This document shows positions 59,244 to 63,059 of a DNA stretch of 63,096 nt, in pieces. How positions within the stretch are numbered: the stretch's first letter is position 1; every line of letters begins with the position of its first letter. The translations under genes and the position numbers were made by a program. The notes under the pieces are model-generated. The model worked only from the letters and a program-made list of their open reading frames with translations. It was not told the DNA's origin and ran no database searches. Source of the DNA: Patescibacteria group bacterium (GTDB lineage Bacteria > Patescibacteriota > Minisyncoccia > Phycocordibacterales > Phycocordibacteraceae); contig JAHJYC010000001.1 in the NCBI GenBank assembly GCA_018826905.1, forward strand, positions 1-63,096, written 5' to 3'.

Positions 59244-59921
59244 CTTGCACAGAACACGGGCTCGTTGACAGACGAATATGCAAATAGGTAATCAACGCCG
59301 CATGGCGTGACTTTCGTCATGTCATGCGGATTGAATATTGCAGAATCACAAAAATTAGAACAGTGGTGTTCAGGTTTCCGCACAGGAGACAATAAGGGTG
59401 CACGGTGGATGCCTAGGCTTGCGACAGCGATGAAGGACGCGACTAATCAGCGAAATGCTTCGGGGAGACGATTTGTAGTCTTTGATCCGGAGGTGTCCGA
59501 ATGGGGAAACCCGGCCAGCAATGGTCACCCAGCTTTTAAGCTGAGGAGCGAACCCAGGGAAGTGAAACATCTCAGTACCTGGAGGAATAGAAAACAACAA
59601 CGAGTTGCGTTCCGTCTATTCGATGCTTCGAGTAGATGGAACGCGACTCTCGTGATTCCCTAAGTAGCGGCGAGCGAAACGGGAATAGCCCAAACCGGGT
59701 ACTTCGGTATCCGGGGTTGTAGGGCGGAAGCGCCGTATTTATACGGCATAAGTTACAAAAGTTCTACATAGCAGAAGAAGCTGGAAAGCTTCGCCCCAGA
59801 GGGTAATGGCCCCGTATGCGAAATGTAAAACTCTTATGCGCTTCCGTTCCTGAGTAGTTCGAGACACGAATAGCTCGGATGAATCTGCCAGAACTAACTG
59901 GTAAGGCTAAATATGTCGCAG

Positions 59922-59967
<46 letters not shown>

Positions 59968-60539
59968 GAGAGGGGAGTGAAATAGAACTGAAACCGTGTA
60001 CTTACAAAGGGTTAGGGTGGGCTCCGGTCCATCCTAGCGTGCCTATTGAAGAATGAGCCTGCGAGTTTATGTATGTCGCTTCGGCTAAATCCGTTACGGG
60101 ATGGAGCCATAGGGAAACCGAGTGTTAATAGCGCGCCCGTGTCATACATAAGACCCGAAGCCAAGTGAGCTTGCCATGAGCAGGATGAAGTCTGTCGAAA
60201 GACAGATGGAGGTCCGAACCCGTAGATCGTACAACGTCTTGGGATGACTTGTGGTAAGGAGTGAAAAGCTAATCGAACTTGGTAATAGCTGGTTCTCTCC
60301 GAAACATCTTTTGGGATGGCGTCGTGTGTTCCCCTTGGGGGTAGAGCACTGGAAGGGATGAACAGGGAGAAATCTCGTCATTCCTATCAAACTCCGAATA
60401 CCAAGGATTATGAGCGCGGCAGTTAGACGGTGGGGGCGAAGCTCCACACGTCGAAGGGGGAAGAGCCCTTGATCGCCAGTTAAGGTCCCAAAATTTACGC
60501 TAAGTACAACTTAAGGAAGTGAGGATTCTTCGACAATGA

Positions 60540-60571
<32 letters not shown>

Positions 60572-61404
60572 GAAAGCGTAACAGCTCACTCATCGAGAGT
60601 CCTTGCGCCGAAGATAATCGGGGTTAAGCGTAATACCGAAACTGCGGGTGTGCATGTCTTCCGAGACGTGCACGCGGTAGGAGAGCGTTCCGTTCTGCTG
60701 TGAAGCTAAAGGGGTGACCCATAGTGGAGCGTACGGAAGTGAGAATGCAGGCACAAGTAACCACAACGCGGGTGAGAACCCCGCGCGTCGAAAGAACAAG
60801 GTTTCCTCAGCTATGGTGATCAACTGAGGGTTAGTCGGGCCTTAGGGGATGGCGAAAGCCGCACCTGATGGACACAGGGTTAATATTCCCTGACCGATCA
60901 TATGTGCGATGGAGTGACGGATTGCTGTATCTATGGCCCATTATTGGATTTGGGTTAGTGCCGTGAGGAGGTCTGGTAGGCAAATCCGCCAGACATTACT
61001 CCGAGCGGAAAAACAATGTCCTTCCACGGAGGGACAGAGCATAGAGAGCGCGGTTCCAAGAAAAACTTCTAAGCTTCAGCATATGACGACCGTACCGCAA
61101 ACCGACACAGGTGTTCAGGTCGAGTAGACTAAGACGAACGAGTTAGAGGTCCTCAAGGAACTCGGCAAAAAAGCGGCCGTAAGTTAGCGATAAGGCCTGC
61201 TCTGGGCAACCAGAGCCGCAGCGAAAGATTTTCTGCCAACTGTTTATCAAAAACACAGCTCCCTGCGAACTCGTAAGAGGATGTATAGGGGGTGACGCCT
61301 GACCAATGCCGGAAGGTCAAGCGCGGGAGGTACATTGATTTATTGATGTGCTGGACCGTATAAGCCCCGGTGAATGTCGGCGATAACTATAATCGTCCTA
61401 AGGT

Positions 61405-61601
61405 TCTGCGTATGAGCAATCGTACGCAGAACGGATTGGGGCGGTTATAGGAGACCGTAAACAGTGTTGAGAGACTTGCGTCATTAAAAGCTACCTCTTC
61501 AAACCGAAAGGTTTGTTGGATCCACGACTCAAATGAGAGGCCATACGTCGTGCCCCCAAGCAATTGGGGTGAAGATATGGTCCTGCTTGAAGGAATAGTA
61601 G
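61405..61601 (+). mobile_element. ORF-less group I intron in 23S rRNA (about E. coli position 1931)
   Basis: The exon junction restores CCTAAGGT|AGCGTAATTCCTTGTC. The 5' exon ends in U and the intron ends in G. R-like element ACGACTCAAATG; S-like element GAAGATATGGTCC; P8-like hairpin CCCCAA-gcaa-TTGGGG. Confidence 0.8.
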
Positions 61602-62262
61602 AGCGTAATTCCTTGTCTGGTAAGTTCAGACGTGCACGAATGGCGTAATGAGTGGAAAACTGTCTCGAGGACTTGCTCGGTGAAAATGCAATACCGGTGA
61701 AGATGCCGGTTACCTGTAGTTAGACGAAAAGACCCCAGGAGCTTTACTACAGCTTGGTATTGGGGCTGCGTGATATATGCGTAGCATAGGTGGGAGACTT
61801 TGAAGCATACCTTTCGGGGTGTGTGGAGTCGCCAGTGAAATACCACTCTTATATTGTGCAGTCTCTAACCCGCGTAAGAACTACGTGGGAACAGTGCCTG
61901 GCGGGTAGTTTTGGTGGGGCGCTATCCTCCTAAAAAGTAACGGAGGAGTCTATTAAGGTTGGCTAGGCGCGAATGGAAACCGTGCCGATAGTGTAATGGC
62001 ACAAGCCAGCTTAACTGTAAGGGGTACATCCCGCACAGATGCGAAAGCAGAGCATAGTGAACCGATGGTACGCCTTAGATGCGGCCAGAGATTAACGGAT
62101 AAAAGTTACCCTGGGGATAACAGGCTAGTTCCGCCCAAGCGTCCATAGCGACGGCGGAGTTCGGCACCTCGATGTCGGCTCACCTTAGCGCGGGGCTGGA
62201 GAAGGTCCCAAGCGTATGGCTGTTCGCCATTTAAAAAGGTACGCGAGCTGGGTTCAAACCGT

Positions 62263-62567
62263 GAGGGGATTGAATAGCAATATTTGATTCTCTCACCGTT
62301 TGAATCCCTTCGAGATTTCTGTTATCAGAACCGATAAAGTGCGATGTGAATGTCTTTTCGTCTTGAAACTAAGATAGAACCAACCATGACACGGCGGTTG
62401 TATGCAGCAATGTATACAAGCAAGCTGACTCATATCGGTGGAACCCTACTCGTAAGAGGGGCAACACCGAGGGAATCCTGAAAGGGAGCCCGTAGAGACT
62501 GAACGTCAGACATCCTTTGGGATGAATTTACAGTCCGATCCTTGGAGTAATCCAAGTAAACGAAATG
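62263..62567 (+). mobile_element. ORF-less group I intron in 23S rRNA (about E. coli position 2593)
   Basis: The exon junction restores GGGTTCAAACCGT|CGTGAGACAGG. The intron ends in G. R-like element GTAGAGACTGAACG; S-like element TTTACAGTCCGATCC; GNRA hairpin CTTGGA-gtaa-TCCAAG. Confidence 0.8.
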
Positions 62568-62951
62568 CGTGAGACAGGTTGGTCTCCTATCTACTACAGG
62601 CGTTGATTCTTGAGGAGACTTGCCCCTAGTACGAGAGGACCGGGGTGAACTGACCTCTGGTCTACGAGCTGTCACGCCAGTGGCATCGCTCGGTAGCTAT
62701 GTCGGGAACTGATAACTGCTGAAAGCATATAAGCGGGAAGCAAACTCCAAGATTAGGAATCGTTATGAGGCTCCTAGAAGATTACTAGGTTGATAGGCTT
62801 TAGATGGAAGCGCAGTGATGCGTTGAGTCGAGAAGTACTAATATGCCCAGACTTCTGTGCGGAATTCTGTATGTCACGTCTAATGATGTGATCTGTAACA
62901 AAAACCTATTTGCATATTCGTCCGTCCATGAGGACGGAAACGTGCGCATGA

Positions 62952-63059
62952 TGCTGGTGATTTATCGGAAGGGCCACACCCGTTCTCATTCCGAACACGG
63001 CAGTTAAGCCTTCTTGAGCCGATGGTACTCGCAAGGGGAGAGTAGGTTGTCGCCAGCAT
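62952..63059 (+). rRNA. rrf: 5S rRNA
   Basis: TGCTGGTGA...CCGAACACGG...GATGGTACT...GAGAGTAGG...CGCCAGCAT. The terminal helix extends into the flanks (62944-63066). Confidence 0.9.

What the first reader, a model, noticed from the sequence alone, without database searches (positions are those of the whole stretch)
61405..61601. Compact (197-nt) ORF-less group I intron in 23S rRNA just 3' of helix 69
The universally conserved string CCUAAGGUAGCGAAAUUCCUUGUC is split after ...CCTAAGGT, and 197 nt intervene before AGCGTAATTCCTTGTC. The insert ends in G. It contains R/S-like core elements (ACGACTCAAATG... and GAAGATATGGTCC), a GNRA-capped P8-like hairpin, and a candidate internal guide GGTTATAGGA that can pair with TCCTAAGGT through a U-G at the splice site. 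It carries no homing endonuclease, and its P4-P6 region appears minimal. The ribosome cannot function unless this intron is removed, so it should self-splice or be processed.
Basis: partly seen in the sequence, partly recalled or inferred. Interest (0 to 1): 0.6.

Follow-up and report, generated by a model that had tools for sequence, protein, structure and literature searches.

The report
Group I intron missing P4-P6 domain
The 197-base interruption of this tiny bacterium's 23S rRNA gene is a real, protein-less descendant of a self-splicing group I intron. It keeps the catalytic half of the ribozyme but has lost the scaffold domain (P4-P6) that reviews count as part of the core, and its structure is still strongly conserved.

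Summary
Window 61405-61601 (197 nt) splits the 23S rRNA exactly after E. coli U1931; the exon ends in U, the insert ends in G, and it has no homing-endonuclease ORF.

The insert is homologous to canonical L1931 group I introns. It shares the R element GAGAGGCCAUACG, P3', P8, J8/7 and the S element AAGAUAUGGUCC.

It differs in three ways:
- Rfam's group I model gives no hit, even at E<=10.
- Only 8 nt lie where P4-P5-P6 should be.
- The P3 5' strand sits in a new place.

It does not reach the splice site.

The best candidate guide, GCUACCU, complements the ligated junction but pairs the splice-site U with A, not G.

At least 42 distinct compact relatives (178-231 nt) occur at this site, all in Patescibacteria (CPR).

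Two public contigs hold insertion-free 23S. One ends at the mature 3' end and matches an intron-bearing sister species around the junction, which suggests precise splicing. Autonomous self-splicing is untested.

This scan reached the same reading before, on other genomes.

The parts
61387..61400 (+). 5' exon positions -18 to -5 (the 3' strand and loop of helix 69). This is the target of the intron's long exon-binding segment.
   Evidence: It forms 14-15 contiguous pairs with intron nt 33-46 (window 61437-61450). Shuffle p = 0.0002. 98% of cells are paired. Compensatory changes appear in L035 (-11/39 C-G to U-A), L034/L035 (-12/40 to C-G) and L153 (-8/36 C-G to U-A).
61401..61404 (+). Last four exon bases, AGGU. 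The 5' splice site follows U61404 (E. coli U1931).
   Evidence: Read from the sequence and the Rfam LSU alignment. These bases are complementary to ACCU at 61493-61496. All 35 sequences keep the pairs, but nothing varies, so there is no covariation test.
61405..61430 (+). Hairpin A: an 11-bp stem with a GCAA loop that begins at the first intron base.
   Evidence: All 11 pairs show changes on both sides, including nt1:nt26 (U-A, U-G and C-G). Its length varies, and L002, L003 and L020 carry insertions in it.
61433..61436 (+). GGAU, which pairs with AUCC at 61520-61523 and closes the 5' domain.
   Evidence: 100% of cells are paired. The fourth pair is U-A in 25 sequences and C-G in 10.
61437..61450 (+). 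Exon-binding segment UGGGGCGGUUAUAG, which pairs with exon -5..-18.
   Evidence: See the first part. Variable positions are purine transitions opposite an exon U, or compensatory changes.
61466..61475 (+). Small hairpin with a GAGA loop. It is variable and is absent from the shortest relatives.
   Evidence: Three pairs, all with changes on both sides. It is deleted in L007-L009 and similar members.
61490..61496 (+). GCUACCU, the candidate internal guide. ACCU pairs with exon AGGU (P1, with U-1 opposite A). GCU pairs with 3' exon AGC (P10).
   Evidence: It is a perfect 7-nt complement of the ligated junction. The shuffle p for a junction-spanning 7-mer is 0.034. The motif G[C/U]UAC[C/U]U is present in 42 of 42 compact members, and it varies only C/U opposite an exon G. 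The guide function itself is inferred. Canonical relatives carry GCUACUC or GCUACUU inside a P5b-like stem.
61496..61519 (+). Hairpin with a GAAA loop (core stem 61500-61515). It is probably the remnant of the P5b-like hairpin of canonical relatives.
   Evidence: Six pairs, all with changes on both sides, and 97% of cells paired. The loop is GNRA-like in all members.
61520..61523 (+). AUCC, the 3' strand of the GGAU/AUCC helix. It abuts P3 directly.
   Evidence: helix 5.
61524..61528 (+). P3 5' strand (ACGAC), in a non-canonical place only 8 nt upstream of P7.
   Evidence: It pairs with 61547-61551. Seven Watson-Crick variants were seen among 42 members: ACGAC/GUCGU, GCGAC/GUCGC, GCAAC/GUUGC, GCGGC/GCCGC, AUGAC/GUCAU, UUGAC/GUCAA and ACGGC/GCCGU. 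Four of the five pairs show double changes.
61529..61536 (+). Linker UCAAAUGA between P3 5' and P7 5'. This is where P4-P5-P6 lies in canonical group I introns.
   Evidence: The linker is 5-8 nt in all 42 members. In canonical L153 the same interval holds P4, P5 and P6 (alignment A3).
61537..61546 (+). R element and P7 5' strand, G-A(bulge)-GGCCAU, followed by J7/3 AC. It holds the presumed guanosine-binding G-C pair (G61539-C61582).
   Evidence: It is invariant in all relatives. RF00028 aligns the identical string in L153 to its R consensus AAAGACUAAACG.
61547..61551 (+). P3 3' strand (GUCGU).
   Evidence: It occupies the same position as P3' GUCGAA of L153 in the RF00028 alignment.
61554..61569 (+). 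P8 hairpin (CCCCAA GCAA UUGGGG).
   Evidence: Five of six pairs show changes on both sides. Its length is variable, and L024 carries a large insertion here.
61570..61583 (+). J8/7 (UGAAGAU) followed by the P7 3' strand / S element (AUGGUCC).
   Evidence: It is nearly invariant. It matches the RF00028 consensus UgAAGAUAUAGUCu. P7 cells are 99% paired with no variation.
61583..61601 (+). Short P9 hairpin (CUGC...GUAG). Its last base is the terminal G61601. The loop AAGGAAU (61590-61596) is complementary to the 3' exon.
   Evidence: The stem covaries as CUAC/GUAG, CUAG/CUAG, CAUG/CAUG, CUUC/GAAG and CACG/CGUG. The terminal G is invariant.
61602..61614 (+). 3' exon. AGC (+1..+3) pairs with the guide (P10). 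AUUCCUU (+7..+13) pairs with the P9 loop.
   Evidence: P10 is 100% paired, and C/U varies opposite G. The loop-exon helix is 98% paired. As a 7-mer it is not significant on its own (p = 0.22).

Best explanation
The insert is a stripped-down descendant of the canonical L1931 group I intron lineage.

**Anatomy.** It keeps the catalytic P3-P7-P8-P9 half. That half includes the P3/P7 pseudoknot, a P7 with a bulged A and the presumed guanosine-binding G-C pair, J8/7, and a terminal G. It has lost the original P3 5' strand, P4, most of P5, and P6. P3 is rebuilt with a new 5' strand placed 8 nt before P7. An elaborate 5' domain, closed by the GGAU/AUCC helix, holds the substrate in three ways:
- A 14-nt segment clamps exon -5..-18.
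- GCUACCU probably aligns both splice sites, as P1 and P10.
- The P9 loop pairs with 3' exon +7..+13.

**Proposed mechanism (inferred).** Splicing would follow the ordinary two-step guanosine-initiated transesterification. Exogenous G would bind in P7 and attack after U61404. The terminal G61601, held next to P7 at the base of P9, would then enter the site, and the exons would be ligated.

**What is shown here:** the anatomy, the homology, the structural conservation, and the loss of P4-P6.

**What is inferred:** the chemistry, the guide role of GCUACCU with its U-A pair instead of the U-G wobble, and whether the RNA splices without help.
For: **Homology to canonical introns**
- The R element, P3', P8, J8/7 and S block match canonical L1931 introns, apart from small differences in P3', J8/7 and the P8 sequence.
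- The canonical relative L153 scores 44.9 bits (E = 2e-10) on RF00028, and that alignment labels these elements.
- L153 also shares the 5' leader: hairpin A, GGAUUGG.ACGAUUAUGG and GUAAA.

**Structure is under selection**
- In the proposed structure, 94.1% of cells are paired, against 33-44% when partners are slid by 1-3 columns.
- 35 pairs show changes on both sides, and 0 of 500 shuffles reach the observed values.
- P3 shows seven Watson-Crick variants.

**Loss of P4-P6**
- RF00028 gives no hit at E<=10.
- The same search finds the second intron in this very gene (33.1 bits, E = 8e-7) and the canonical intron in L006.
- Only 5-8 nt separate P3 5' from P7 5' in all 42 members.
- Alignment A3 shows the columns holding P4', P6 and part of P5 of L153 missing in the compact forms.

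**Distribution fits an optional intron**
- 37 of 221 genomes in the genus carry it, and 28 of 200 have the empty site.

**Ligation is needed, and probably occurs**
- In L006 and L026 a canonical intron lies 14 nt or 8 nt upstream, leaving mini-exons.
- The public contig L158 is an insertion-free 23S covering LSU model positions 533-2925. It ends exactly at the model's last position.
- L158 is 100% identical to the intron-bearing genome G188 for 194 nt upstream and 328 nt downstream of the L1931 junction. It lacks all three of the G188 introns that lie in the compared stretch.
- G188 has no uninterrupted junction in its assembly.
Against: - No RNA or biochemical data exist for this organism. 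Its own ligated junction was not found in the metagenome collection.
- I could not verify that L158 comes from RNA. It differs from G188 at 26 positions further upstream. It could therefore be DNA of an intron-free close relative.
- P7 is invariant, so it is supported by homology only, not by covariation.
- The splice-site U would pair with A, not with the G wobble that is nearly universal in group I introns (my background knowledge).
- U92 of the guide often pairs at the base of the neighbouring hairpin.
- The GCUAC motif is inherited from a P5b-like stem of canonical relatives. Its complementarity to the junction may therefore be partly coincidental.
- The review PMC3984707 describes the P4/P6 domain as the scaffolding domain of the group I active core. 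Losing it might abolish unaided catalysis.
Confidence: 0.6

Rival explanations
1. The insert is a crippled intron that is still excised and ligated but is no longer autonomous. Having lost P4-P6, the RNA would need a trans-acting helper to fold or catalyse. That helper could be a host RNA-binding protein or maturase-like factor, or conceivably another RNA.
For: - The scaffold domain is absent.
- There is no canonical U-G wobble P1.
- The reviewed definition counts P4/P6 as part of the active core (PMC3984707).
- From my own knowledge: engineered P4-P6 deletions of group I ribozymes keep only weak activity, and several organellar group I introns depend on proteins.
Against: - No candidate helper was identified here.
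- The family occurs in many Patescibacteria lineages with genomes of about 0.5-1 Mb, and no intron-encoded protein accompanies it.
- The RNA keeps every catalytic-half element invariant. It also has four GNRA-type loops and extensive exon clamps, which look like compensation at the RNA level.
Confidence: 0.25
2. The insert is a canonical, merely small group I intron. P1 would use GGUUAUAGGA with a U-G at the splice site. R would be ACGACUCAAAUG pairing with S. P3 would be CCUCU/AGAGG. A minimal P4-P6 hairpin would complete it.
For: All these pairings are possible in the sequence: 94% of cells are paired across the family. The S element and P8 are correct.
Against:
- ACGAC covaries with GUCGU instead.
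- GGAGACC is deleted in the shorter relatives.
- The exon duplex register -5..-18 has compensatory support.
- RF00028 finds nothing.
Confidence: 0.05
3. The insert is an intervening sequence that RNases cut out without ligation, giving a fragmented 23S. Alternatively, it is an expansion segment kept in the mature ribosome.
For: Rfam gives no group I hit. Short CPR rRNA insertions that match no intron model were left unclassified, and an IVS-type origin was suggested, in PMC11270868.
Against: - The insert's two ends do not pair with each other, as IVS stems do.
- The site lies in the conserved H69-H71 region.
- The invariant core is homologous to the group I R and S elements.
- Relatives have 8-nt and 14-nt mini-exons next to a second intron. 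These would be lost without ligation.
- Contigs L158 and L160 show contiguous, insertion-free 23S across the site.
Confidence: 0.05

Closest known systems
Canonical group I introns at 23S position L1931. Published examples are Thermotoga, Synechococcus and Simkania, 654-700 nt with a LAGLIDADG gene (PMC1995217), and CPR site '23IS7' (PMC11270868).
   Same: - The insertion site is the same, with U at -1 and a terminal G.
- The R element (AGAGGCCAUACG) and S element (AAGAUAUGGUCC) are identical.
- The order P7-J7/3-P3'-P8-J8/7-P7'-P9 is the same.
- L153 also shares hairpin A, GGAU and the long exon-binding segment.
   Different: - Canonical members have the P3 5' strand upstream of P4 (P/Q pairing UGCUG/CAGCA), a complex P5, P6, and an IGS GCCUUAG that makes the U-G wobble. 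They score on RF00028.
- The window's intron has none of these. It scores nothing, has P3 5' in a new position, and is 60-130 nt shorter than the ORF-less canonical forms.
Engineered group I ribozymes lacking P4-P6, that is, a P3-P9 'minimal catalytic domain' (work of Ikawa, Shiraishi and Inoue, about 2000). This is recalled from my own knowledge and was not retrieved here.
   Same: The catalytic P3-P7-P8-P9 half stands alone, without the scaffold domain.
   Different: Those are laboratory deletions with weak activity under special conditions. This is a natural, widely conserved family with added exon clamps and a rebuilt P3.
GIR1 / lariat-capping ribozyme (PMC2219692).
   Same: It is an RNA of about 190 nt derived from a group I core with rearranged junctions and pseudoknots. 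It shows that the fold can be remodelled in nature.
   Different: GIR1 keeps its P4-P6 equivalents and catalyses branching, not splicing. It lies inside a twin-ribozyme intron, and there is no sequence relationship.
Azoarcus pre-tRNA-Ile intron, about 205 nt. This is the classic small self-splicing group I intron, as I recall it.
   Same: It is similar in size, ORF-less and bacterial.
   Different: Azoarcus has a complete P3-P9 and P4-P6 core and a U-G wobble P1.
RNase III-processed intervening sequences of bacterial 23S rRNA.
   Same: They are short, ORF-less, optional insertions in 23S.
   Different: An IVS is a simple extended stem at helix tips (helices 9, 25 and 45) and is removed without ligation. 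This insert has a pseudoknotted, invariant ribozyme-like core in a conserved inter-helix strand.

Membership tests
Group I intron (Rfam RF00028; core as reviewed in PMC3984707) | The 5' exon ends in U and the intron ends in G (omega-G). | tested here: met
   T61404 and G61601. The terminal G is invariant in 35 aligned relatives.
Group I intron (Rfam RF00028; core as reviewed in PMC3984707) | The catalytic P3/P9 domain: a P3-P7 pseudoknot, P8, J8/7, and R pairing with S to form P7 with the G-binding site. | tested here: met
   P3 and P8 covary. P7 is 99% paired but invariant. The R and S strings are identical to those that RF00028 aligns in canonical L153. The G-binding pair is inferred from position only.
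Group I intron (Rfam RF00028; core as reviewed in PMC3984707) | The scaffolding P4/P6 domain (P pairs with Q to form P4; P5; P6), lying between P3 5' and P7 5'. | tested here: not met
   Only an 8-nt linker lies between P3 5' and P7 5', and it is 5-8 nt in all 42 members. There are no P/Q strings. The columns holding P4', P6 and part of P5 of L153 are missing in alignment A3.
Group I intron (Rfam RF00028; core as reviewed in PMC3984707) | P1 formed by an internal guide near the intron's 5' end, with a U-G wobble at the 5' splice site, and P10 formed with the same guide. | tested here: inconclusive
   GCUACCU has the canonical P10-P1 arrangement and complements the ligated junction (p = 0.034). 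However, U-1 faces A, the guide lies 86 nt into the intron, and the exon never varies, so there is no covariation test.
Group I intron (Rfam RF00028; core as reviewed in PMC3984707) | A score on the Rfam covariance model. | tested here: not met
   No RF00028 match at E<=10 on 61350-61660. Positive controls scored 33.1 bits in the same gene, 44.9 bits for L153 and 22.4 bits for L006.
Group I intron (Rfam RF00028; core as reviewed in PMC3984707) | Guanosine-dependent self-splicing with exon ligation. | not testable with these tools
   The evidence is indirect only. The insertion-free 23S contigs L158 and L160 are near-identical to intron-bearing relatives.
Compact P4-P6-less L1931 intron family of Patescibacteria (defined in this scan; I found no published description) | 178-231 nt at L1931, with hairpin A, GGAY/RUCC, an exon -5..-18 binder, GYUACYU, a GNRA-type hairpin, P3 5' next to RUCC, and an invariant GAGGCCAUACG...AAGAWAUGGUCC. 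| tested here: met
   The window sequence has every element. 42 distinct members share them.
RNase III-type intervening sequence (IVS) | The insert's two ends pair into one long stem at a helix tip, with no conserved core and excision without ligation. | tested here: not met
   Neither the MFE fold nor the alignment fold shows pairing between the two ends. Invariant core strings are present. Contiguous 23S contigs span the site.

The most novel reading that the evidence does not exclude
A natural, widespread ribozyme family splices itself out of rRNA using only the P3-P9 half of the group I fold. It would do so with a transposed P3 strand, a Watson-Crick U-A pair in place of the U-G wobble at the 5' splice site, and about 28 nt of exon clamping that replaces the P4-P6 scaffold. 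That would make it a distinct structural class of group I-derived self-splicing intron.
Probability: 0.4. Interest if true: 0.85.

Novelty: new variant of a known kind. Interest (0 to 1): 0.68.

Why it matters
Reviews define the group I active core as two domains: the P4/P6 scaffold and the catalytic P3/P9 domain. If a conserved natural family is removed from rRNA without P4-P6, it would matter in four ways:
1. It would be a natural experiment on the minimal catalytic unit of this ribozyme class, and on how exon-binding helices can substitute for a scaffold.
2. It would challenge the assumed universality of the U-G wobble at the 5' splice site.
3. It would explain part of the 'uncharacterized short insertions' in CPR rRNA genes that covariance models miss (PMC11270868). 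That would improve rRNA annotation in Patescibacteria.
4. It would offer a self-splicing module of about 180-200 nt that could be tested directly in vitro.

If the RNA turns out to need a helper, it would point to an unknown splicing cofactor in bacteria with minimal genomes.

Tried and rejected
- **Rfam on the insert.** cmscan with permissive thresholds gave only chance-level miRNA and flavivirus matches and no Intron_gpI. One multi-source Rfam call failed internally and was repeated one source at a time.
Counted on the family alignment, they show no pair with changes on both sides. I rejected them in favour of P3 = ACGAC/GUCGU, P7 = GAGGCCAU/AUGGUCC and the exon duplex at -5..-18.
- **My own early candidates.**
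  - P7 = GAGACC/GGUC was rejected because GGAGACC is deleted in the shorter relatives while GGUCC stays invariant.
  - P3 = CCUCUU/GAGAGG was rejected because it breaks in L008, L009, L035 and L037.
- **The position of the canonical guide.** The segment RCGUCAU occupies the place of the canonical IGS GCCUUAG, but it pairs poorly with the exon and decays further in the short subfamily. It does not look like a functional guide.
- **ORF search.** Nothing plausible was found.
- **ORF-containing or other-site compact relatives.** These could have tested the guide by covariation. All other-site introns with the same R/S core were long, canonical and ORF-bearing.
- **Metagenome scan for this organism's own ligated junction.** It gave 0 hits.
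- **Literature.** Searches for a published natural P4-P6-less group I intron found none. This is not proof of absence, because the library is limited to open-access papers.
- **Sample type of L158 and L160.** I could not determine whether they come from a metatranscriptome or a metagenome.

Full report
**1. Observation**

Rfam's bacterial LSU model covers window 59380-62862 on the plus strand (2346 bits), followed by a 5S gene. In the permissive scan of 61350-61660, the LSU alignment jumps about 200 nt inside the conserved string CCUAAGGU|AGCG.

Reading the sequence:
- The 5' exon ends at T61404.
- The insert is 61405-61601 (197 nt) and ends in G.
- The 3' exon begins AGCGTAATTCCTTGTC at 61602.

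By E. coli numbering the site follows U1931, the known intron site L1931. I checked the numbering from memory against m5U1939 and m5C1962.

The boundaries cannot slide. The largest ORF inside the insert is 58 aa on the opposite strand, so there is no homing endonuclease.

The genome is 682 kb in 6 contigs, 97% complete, and holds a single copy of the insert. The host is therefore a CPR/Patescibacteria bacterium.

**2. A conserved, optional family at the same site**

- Homologous inserts (70-99% identity, 186-231 nt) sit at exactly this site in 37 of 221 genomes of the genus.
- In the same genus, 28 of 200 genomes have the uninterrupted junction.
- A strict core pattern also finds the family in three other families of the order.
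- Among those loci, the compact L1931 forms (178-214 nt) were all in Patescibacteria MAGs labelled Paceibacterota, Nomurabacteria, Kaiserbacteria, Adlerbacteria or 'Saccharibacteria'.
- In total I collected 42 distinct compact sequences.

**3. Structure**

On a 35-sequence alignment that includes 20 nt of 5' exon and 16 nt of 3' exon (A2), I tested an explicit structure with pseudoknots.
- 94.1% of cells are paired, against 33-44% when partners are slid by 1-3 columns.
- 35 of 73 pairs show changes on both sides.
- 0 of 500 shuffles reach the observed values.

The elements, in intron numbering (add 61404 for window coordinates):

| Element | Intron nt | Support |
|---|---|---|
| Hairpin A | 1-11 / 16-26 | Starts at the first intron base; every pair covaries |
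| GGAU / AUCC | 29-32 / 116-119 | U-A in 25 sequences, C-G in 10 |
| Exon-binding segment | 33-46, pairs with exon -5..-18 | See below |
| GAGA hairpin | 62-71 | Covaries; absent in the shortest members |
| GCUACCU | 86-92 | Candidate guide (section 6) |
| GAAA hairpin | 96-111 | All six pairs covary |
| P3 | 120-124 / 143-147 | Seven Watson-Crick variants |
| Linker | 125-132 | 5-8 nt in all members |
| P7 | G133, bulged A134, 135-140 / 173-179 | Invariant |
| P8 | 150-165 | Covaries |
| J8/7 (UGAAGAU) | 166-172 | Nearly invariant |
| P9 | 179-182 / 194-197 | Closing pair includes the terminal G; covaries |

P3 occurs as ACGAC/GUCGU, GCGAC/GUCGC, GCAAC/GUUGC, GCGGC/GCCGC, AUGAC/GUCAU, UUGAC/GUCAA and ACGGC/GCCGU.

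The exon duplex is 15 bp in this window (shuffle p = 0.0002). It is supported by compensatory changes wherever the exon differs:
- L035: -11/39, C-G to U-A.
- L034 and L035: -12/40 becomes C-G.
- L153: -8/36, C-G to U-A.

**4. Relationship to group I introns**

RF00028 does not match the insert, even at E<=10. The same tool does detect:
- the second insert of this same gene, at 62377-62557 (33.1 bits, E = 8e-7);
- a canonical intron just upstream in relative L006 (22.4 bits);
- a 324-nt ORF-less L1931 intron, L153 (44.9 bits, E = 2e-10).

The RF00028 alignment of L153 labels these elements:
- P3 5' = UUCGAC, upstream of P4 (UGCUG/CAGCA);
- P6;
- R = AGAGGCCAUACG;
- P3' = GUCGAA;
- P8;
- J8/7 and S = UAAGAUAUGGUCC;
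- P9.

The window's insert carries the same R and S strings and the same order R-P3'-P8-J8/7-S-P9. It also shares L153's unusual leader: hairpin A, GGAUUGG.ACGAUUAUGG and GUAAA.

Where L153 has P3 5'-J3/4-P4-P5-P4'-P6 (about 115 nt), the compact family has only about 46 nt. That stretch holds GCUACCU, one GNRA-type hairpin, AUCC, a new P3 5' strand and a 5-8-nt linker.

The core motif is widespread. It occurs in introns of about 705 nt with ORFs in Actinomycetota and in forms of 260-275 nt in Armatimonadota. It is also found at other rRNA sites.

The compact form is therefore best read as a deletion derivative of a canonical lineage. The scenario that a P5-region segment was co-opted as the new P3 strand is my inference. 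The review PMC3984707 states that the active core consists of the P4/P6 scaffolding domain and the P3/P9 catalytic domain. This family lacks the first.

**5.

- ACGACUC is P3, not R.
- GGUUAUAGGA is part of the exon -5..-18 duplex, not a P1 reaching the splice site.

**6. The guide**

GCUACCU is a perfect complement of the ligated junction AGGU|AGC. It has the canonical polarity, with the P10 part 5' of the P1 part. A junction-spanning 7-mer arises by chance with p = 0.034.

The motif is G[C/U]UAC[C/U]U in all 42 members. The only variation is C/U opposite an exon G.

There are three caveats:
- U-1 pairs with A rather than G.
- U92 often pairs at the base of the next hairpin.
- Canonical relatives already contain GCUACUC or GCUACUU inside a P5b-like stem, so the motif is inherited.

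I rate the guide role at about 50%.

The 5' splice site lies in the 4-nt strand AGGU, between the exon duplex and hairpin A. This is a three-way junction with the GGAU/AUCC helix.

**7. Is it removed and are the exons joined?**

- In L006 and L026 a canonical intron lies 14 nt and 8 nt upstream. The resulting mini-exons can only survive if the exons are ligated.
- A scan of public metagenome contigs for this organism's own ligated junction found nothing.
- A scan with the helix-68 tip shared by four intron-bearing sister species found three contigs.
- L158 (2391 nt) aligns to LSU model positions 533-2925 with no insertion. It stops exactly at the model's last position, which corresponds to window 62862.
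- L158 is 100% identical to the intron-bearing genome G188 for 194 nt upstream and 328 nt downstream of the L1931 junction. It lacks that genome's 197-nt L1931 intron and two further introns of 504 and 913 nt.
- G188 shows no uninterrupted junction.
- L160 is likewise insertion-free.

An end that coincides with the mature 3' terminus suggests an assembled rRNA transcript. I could not verify the sample type, and L158 differs from G188 at 26 positions further upstream. I treat this as supportive evidence, at roughly 70%, and not as proof. An earlier follow-up in this scan reported RNA evidence of precise re-joining for another family member. I did not check that claim.

**8. Verdict**

This is a group I-derived intron that lacks P4-P6 and is probably still spliced. 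Whether it is autonomous is open. The published survey of CPR rRNA insertions left short inserts that match no Rfam model unclassified (PMC11270868), and I found no publication describing this architecture. The scan itself has found and followed up the same family several times on other genomes, with the same reading.

Noticed in passing
window 62263-62567: A second insert in the same 23S gene, in the peptidyl-transferase region, is a canonical ORF-less group I intron. RF00028 matches 62377-62557 at 33.1 bits (E = 8e-7). Contigs L158 and L160 lack it precisely.
   Followed up: partly
window about 59601-59652: The Rfam LSU alignment shows a 54-nt insertion in 23S domain I, and a further roughly 20-nt extension nearby. 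These look like helix extensions or an IVS, not introns.
   Followed up: no
L006:1481-2464 (- strand) and L026:1485-1800 (- strand): In two relatives a canonical group I intron sits immediately upstream of the compact L1931 intron. It lies after position 1917 in L006 and after 1923 in L026, leaving mini-exons of only 14 nt and 8 nt. In these genomes the long exon-binding segment can pair fully only after the upstream intron has been removed, or across it. That would imply an order of splicing.
   Followed up: partly
L106:4618 and L139:646 (- strand); L075 and L118: The same R/S core (GAGGCCAUACG...AAGAUAUGGUCC) occurs in introns near the 3' end of 16S rRNA in MAGs labelled Saccharibacteria. 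It also occurs in L1931-type introns of about 1255 nt in archaeal 23S (a Methanoxibalbensis MAG and a Thermoplasmata MAG). One intron core lineage has therefore spread across domains and across rRNA sites.
   Followed up: no
L158 (Ga0099765_1033550) and L160 (Ga0075490_1050357): These public contigs hold completely insertion-free 23S of close relatives. L158 ends exactly at the mature 3' end, and L160 ends 13 model positions short of it. They are probably assembled rRNA transcripts and would be useful as splicing evidence for all introns of this genus.
   Followed up: partly
window 59380-63058: The 23S-5S unit has no 16S gene upstream in the window, so the rRNA genes are unlinked. Other first-stage notes recorded this too.
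   Followed up: no
L153:271-594: This 324-nt ORF-less L1931 intron combines the compact family's leader (hairpin A, GGAU, exon clamp) with a complete canonical P3-P4-P5-P6 core. It looks like an intermediate form. Its P5 region contains a direct repeat, GUAUCCGGUGC, that could have mediated the deletion.
   Followed up: partly
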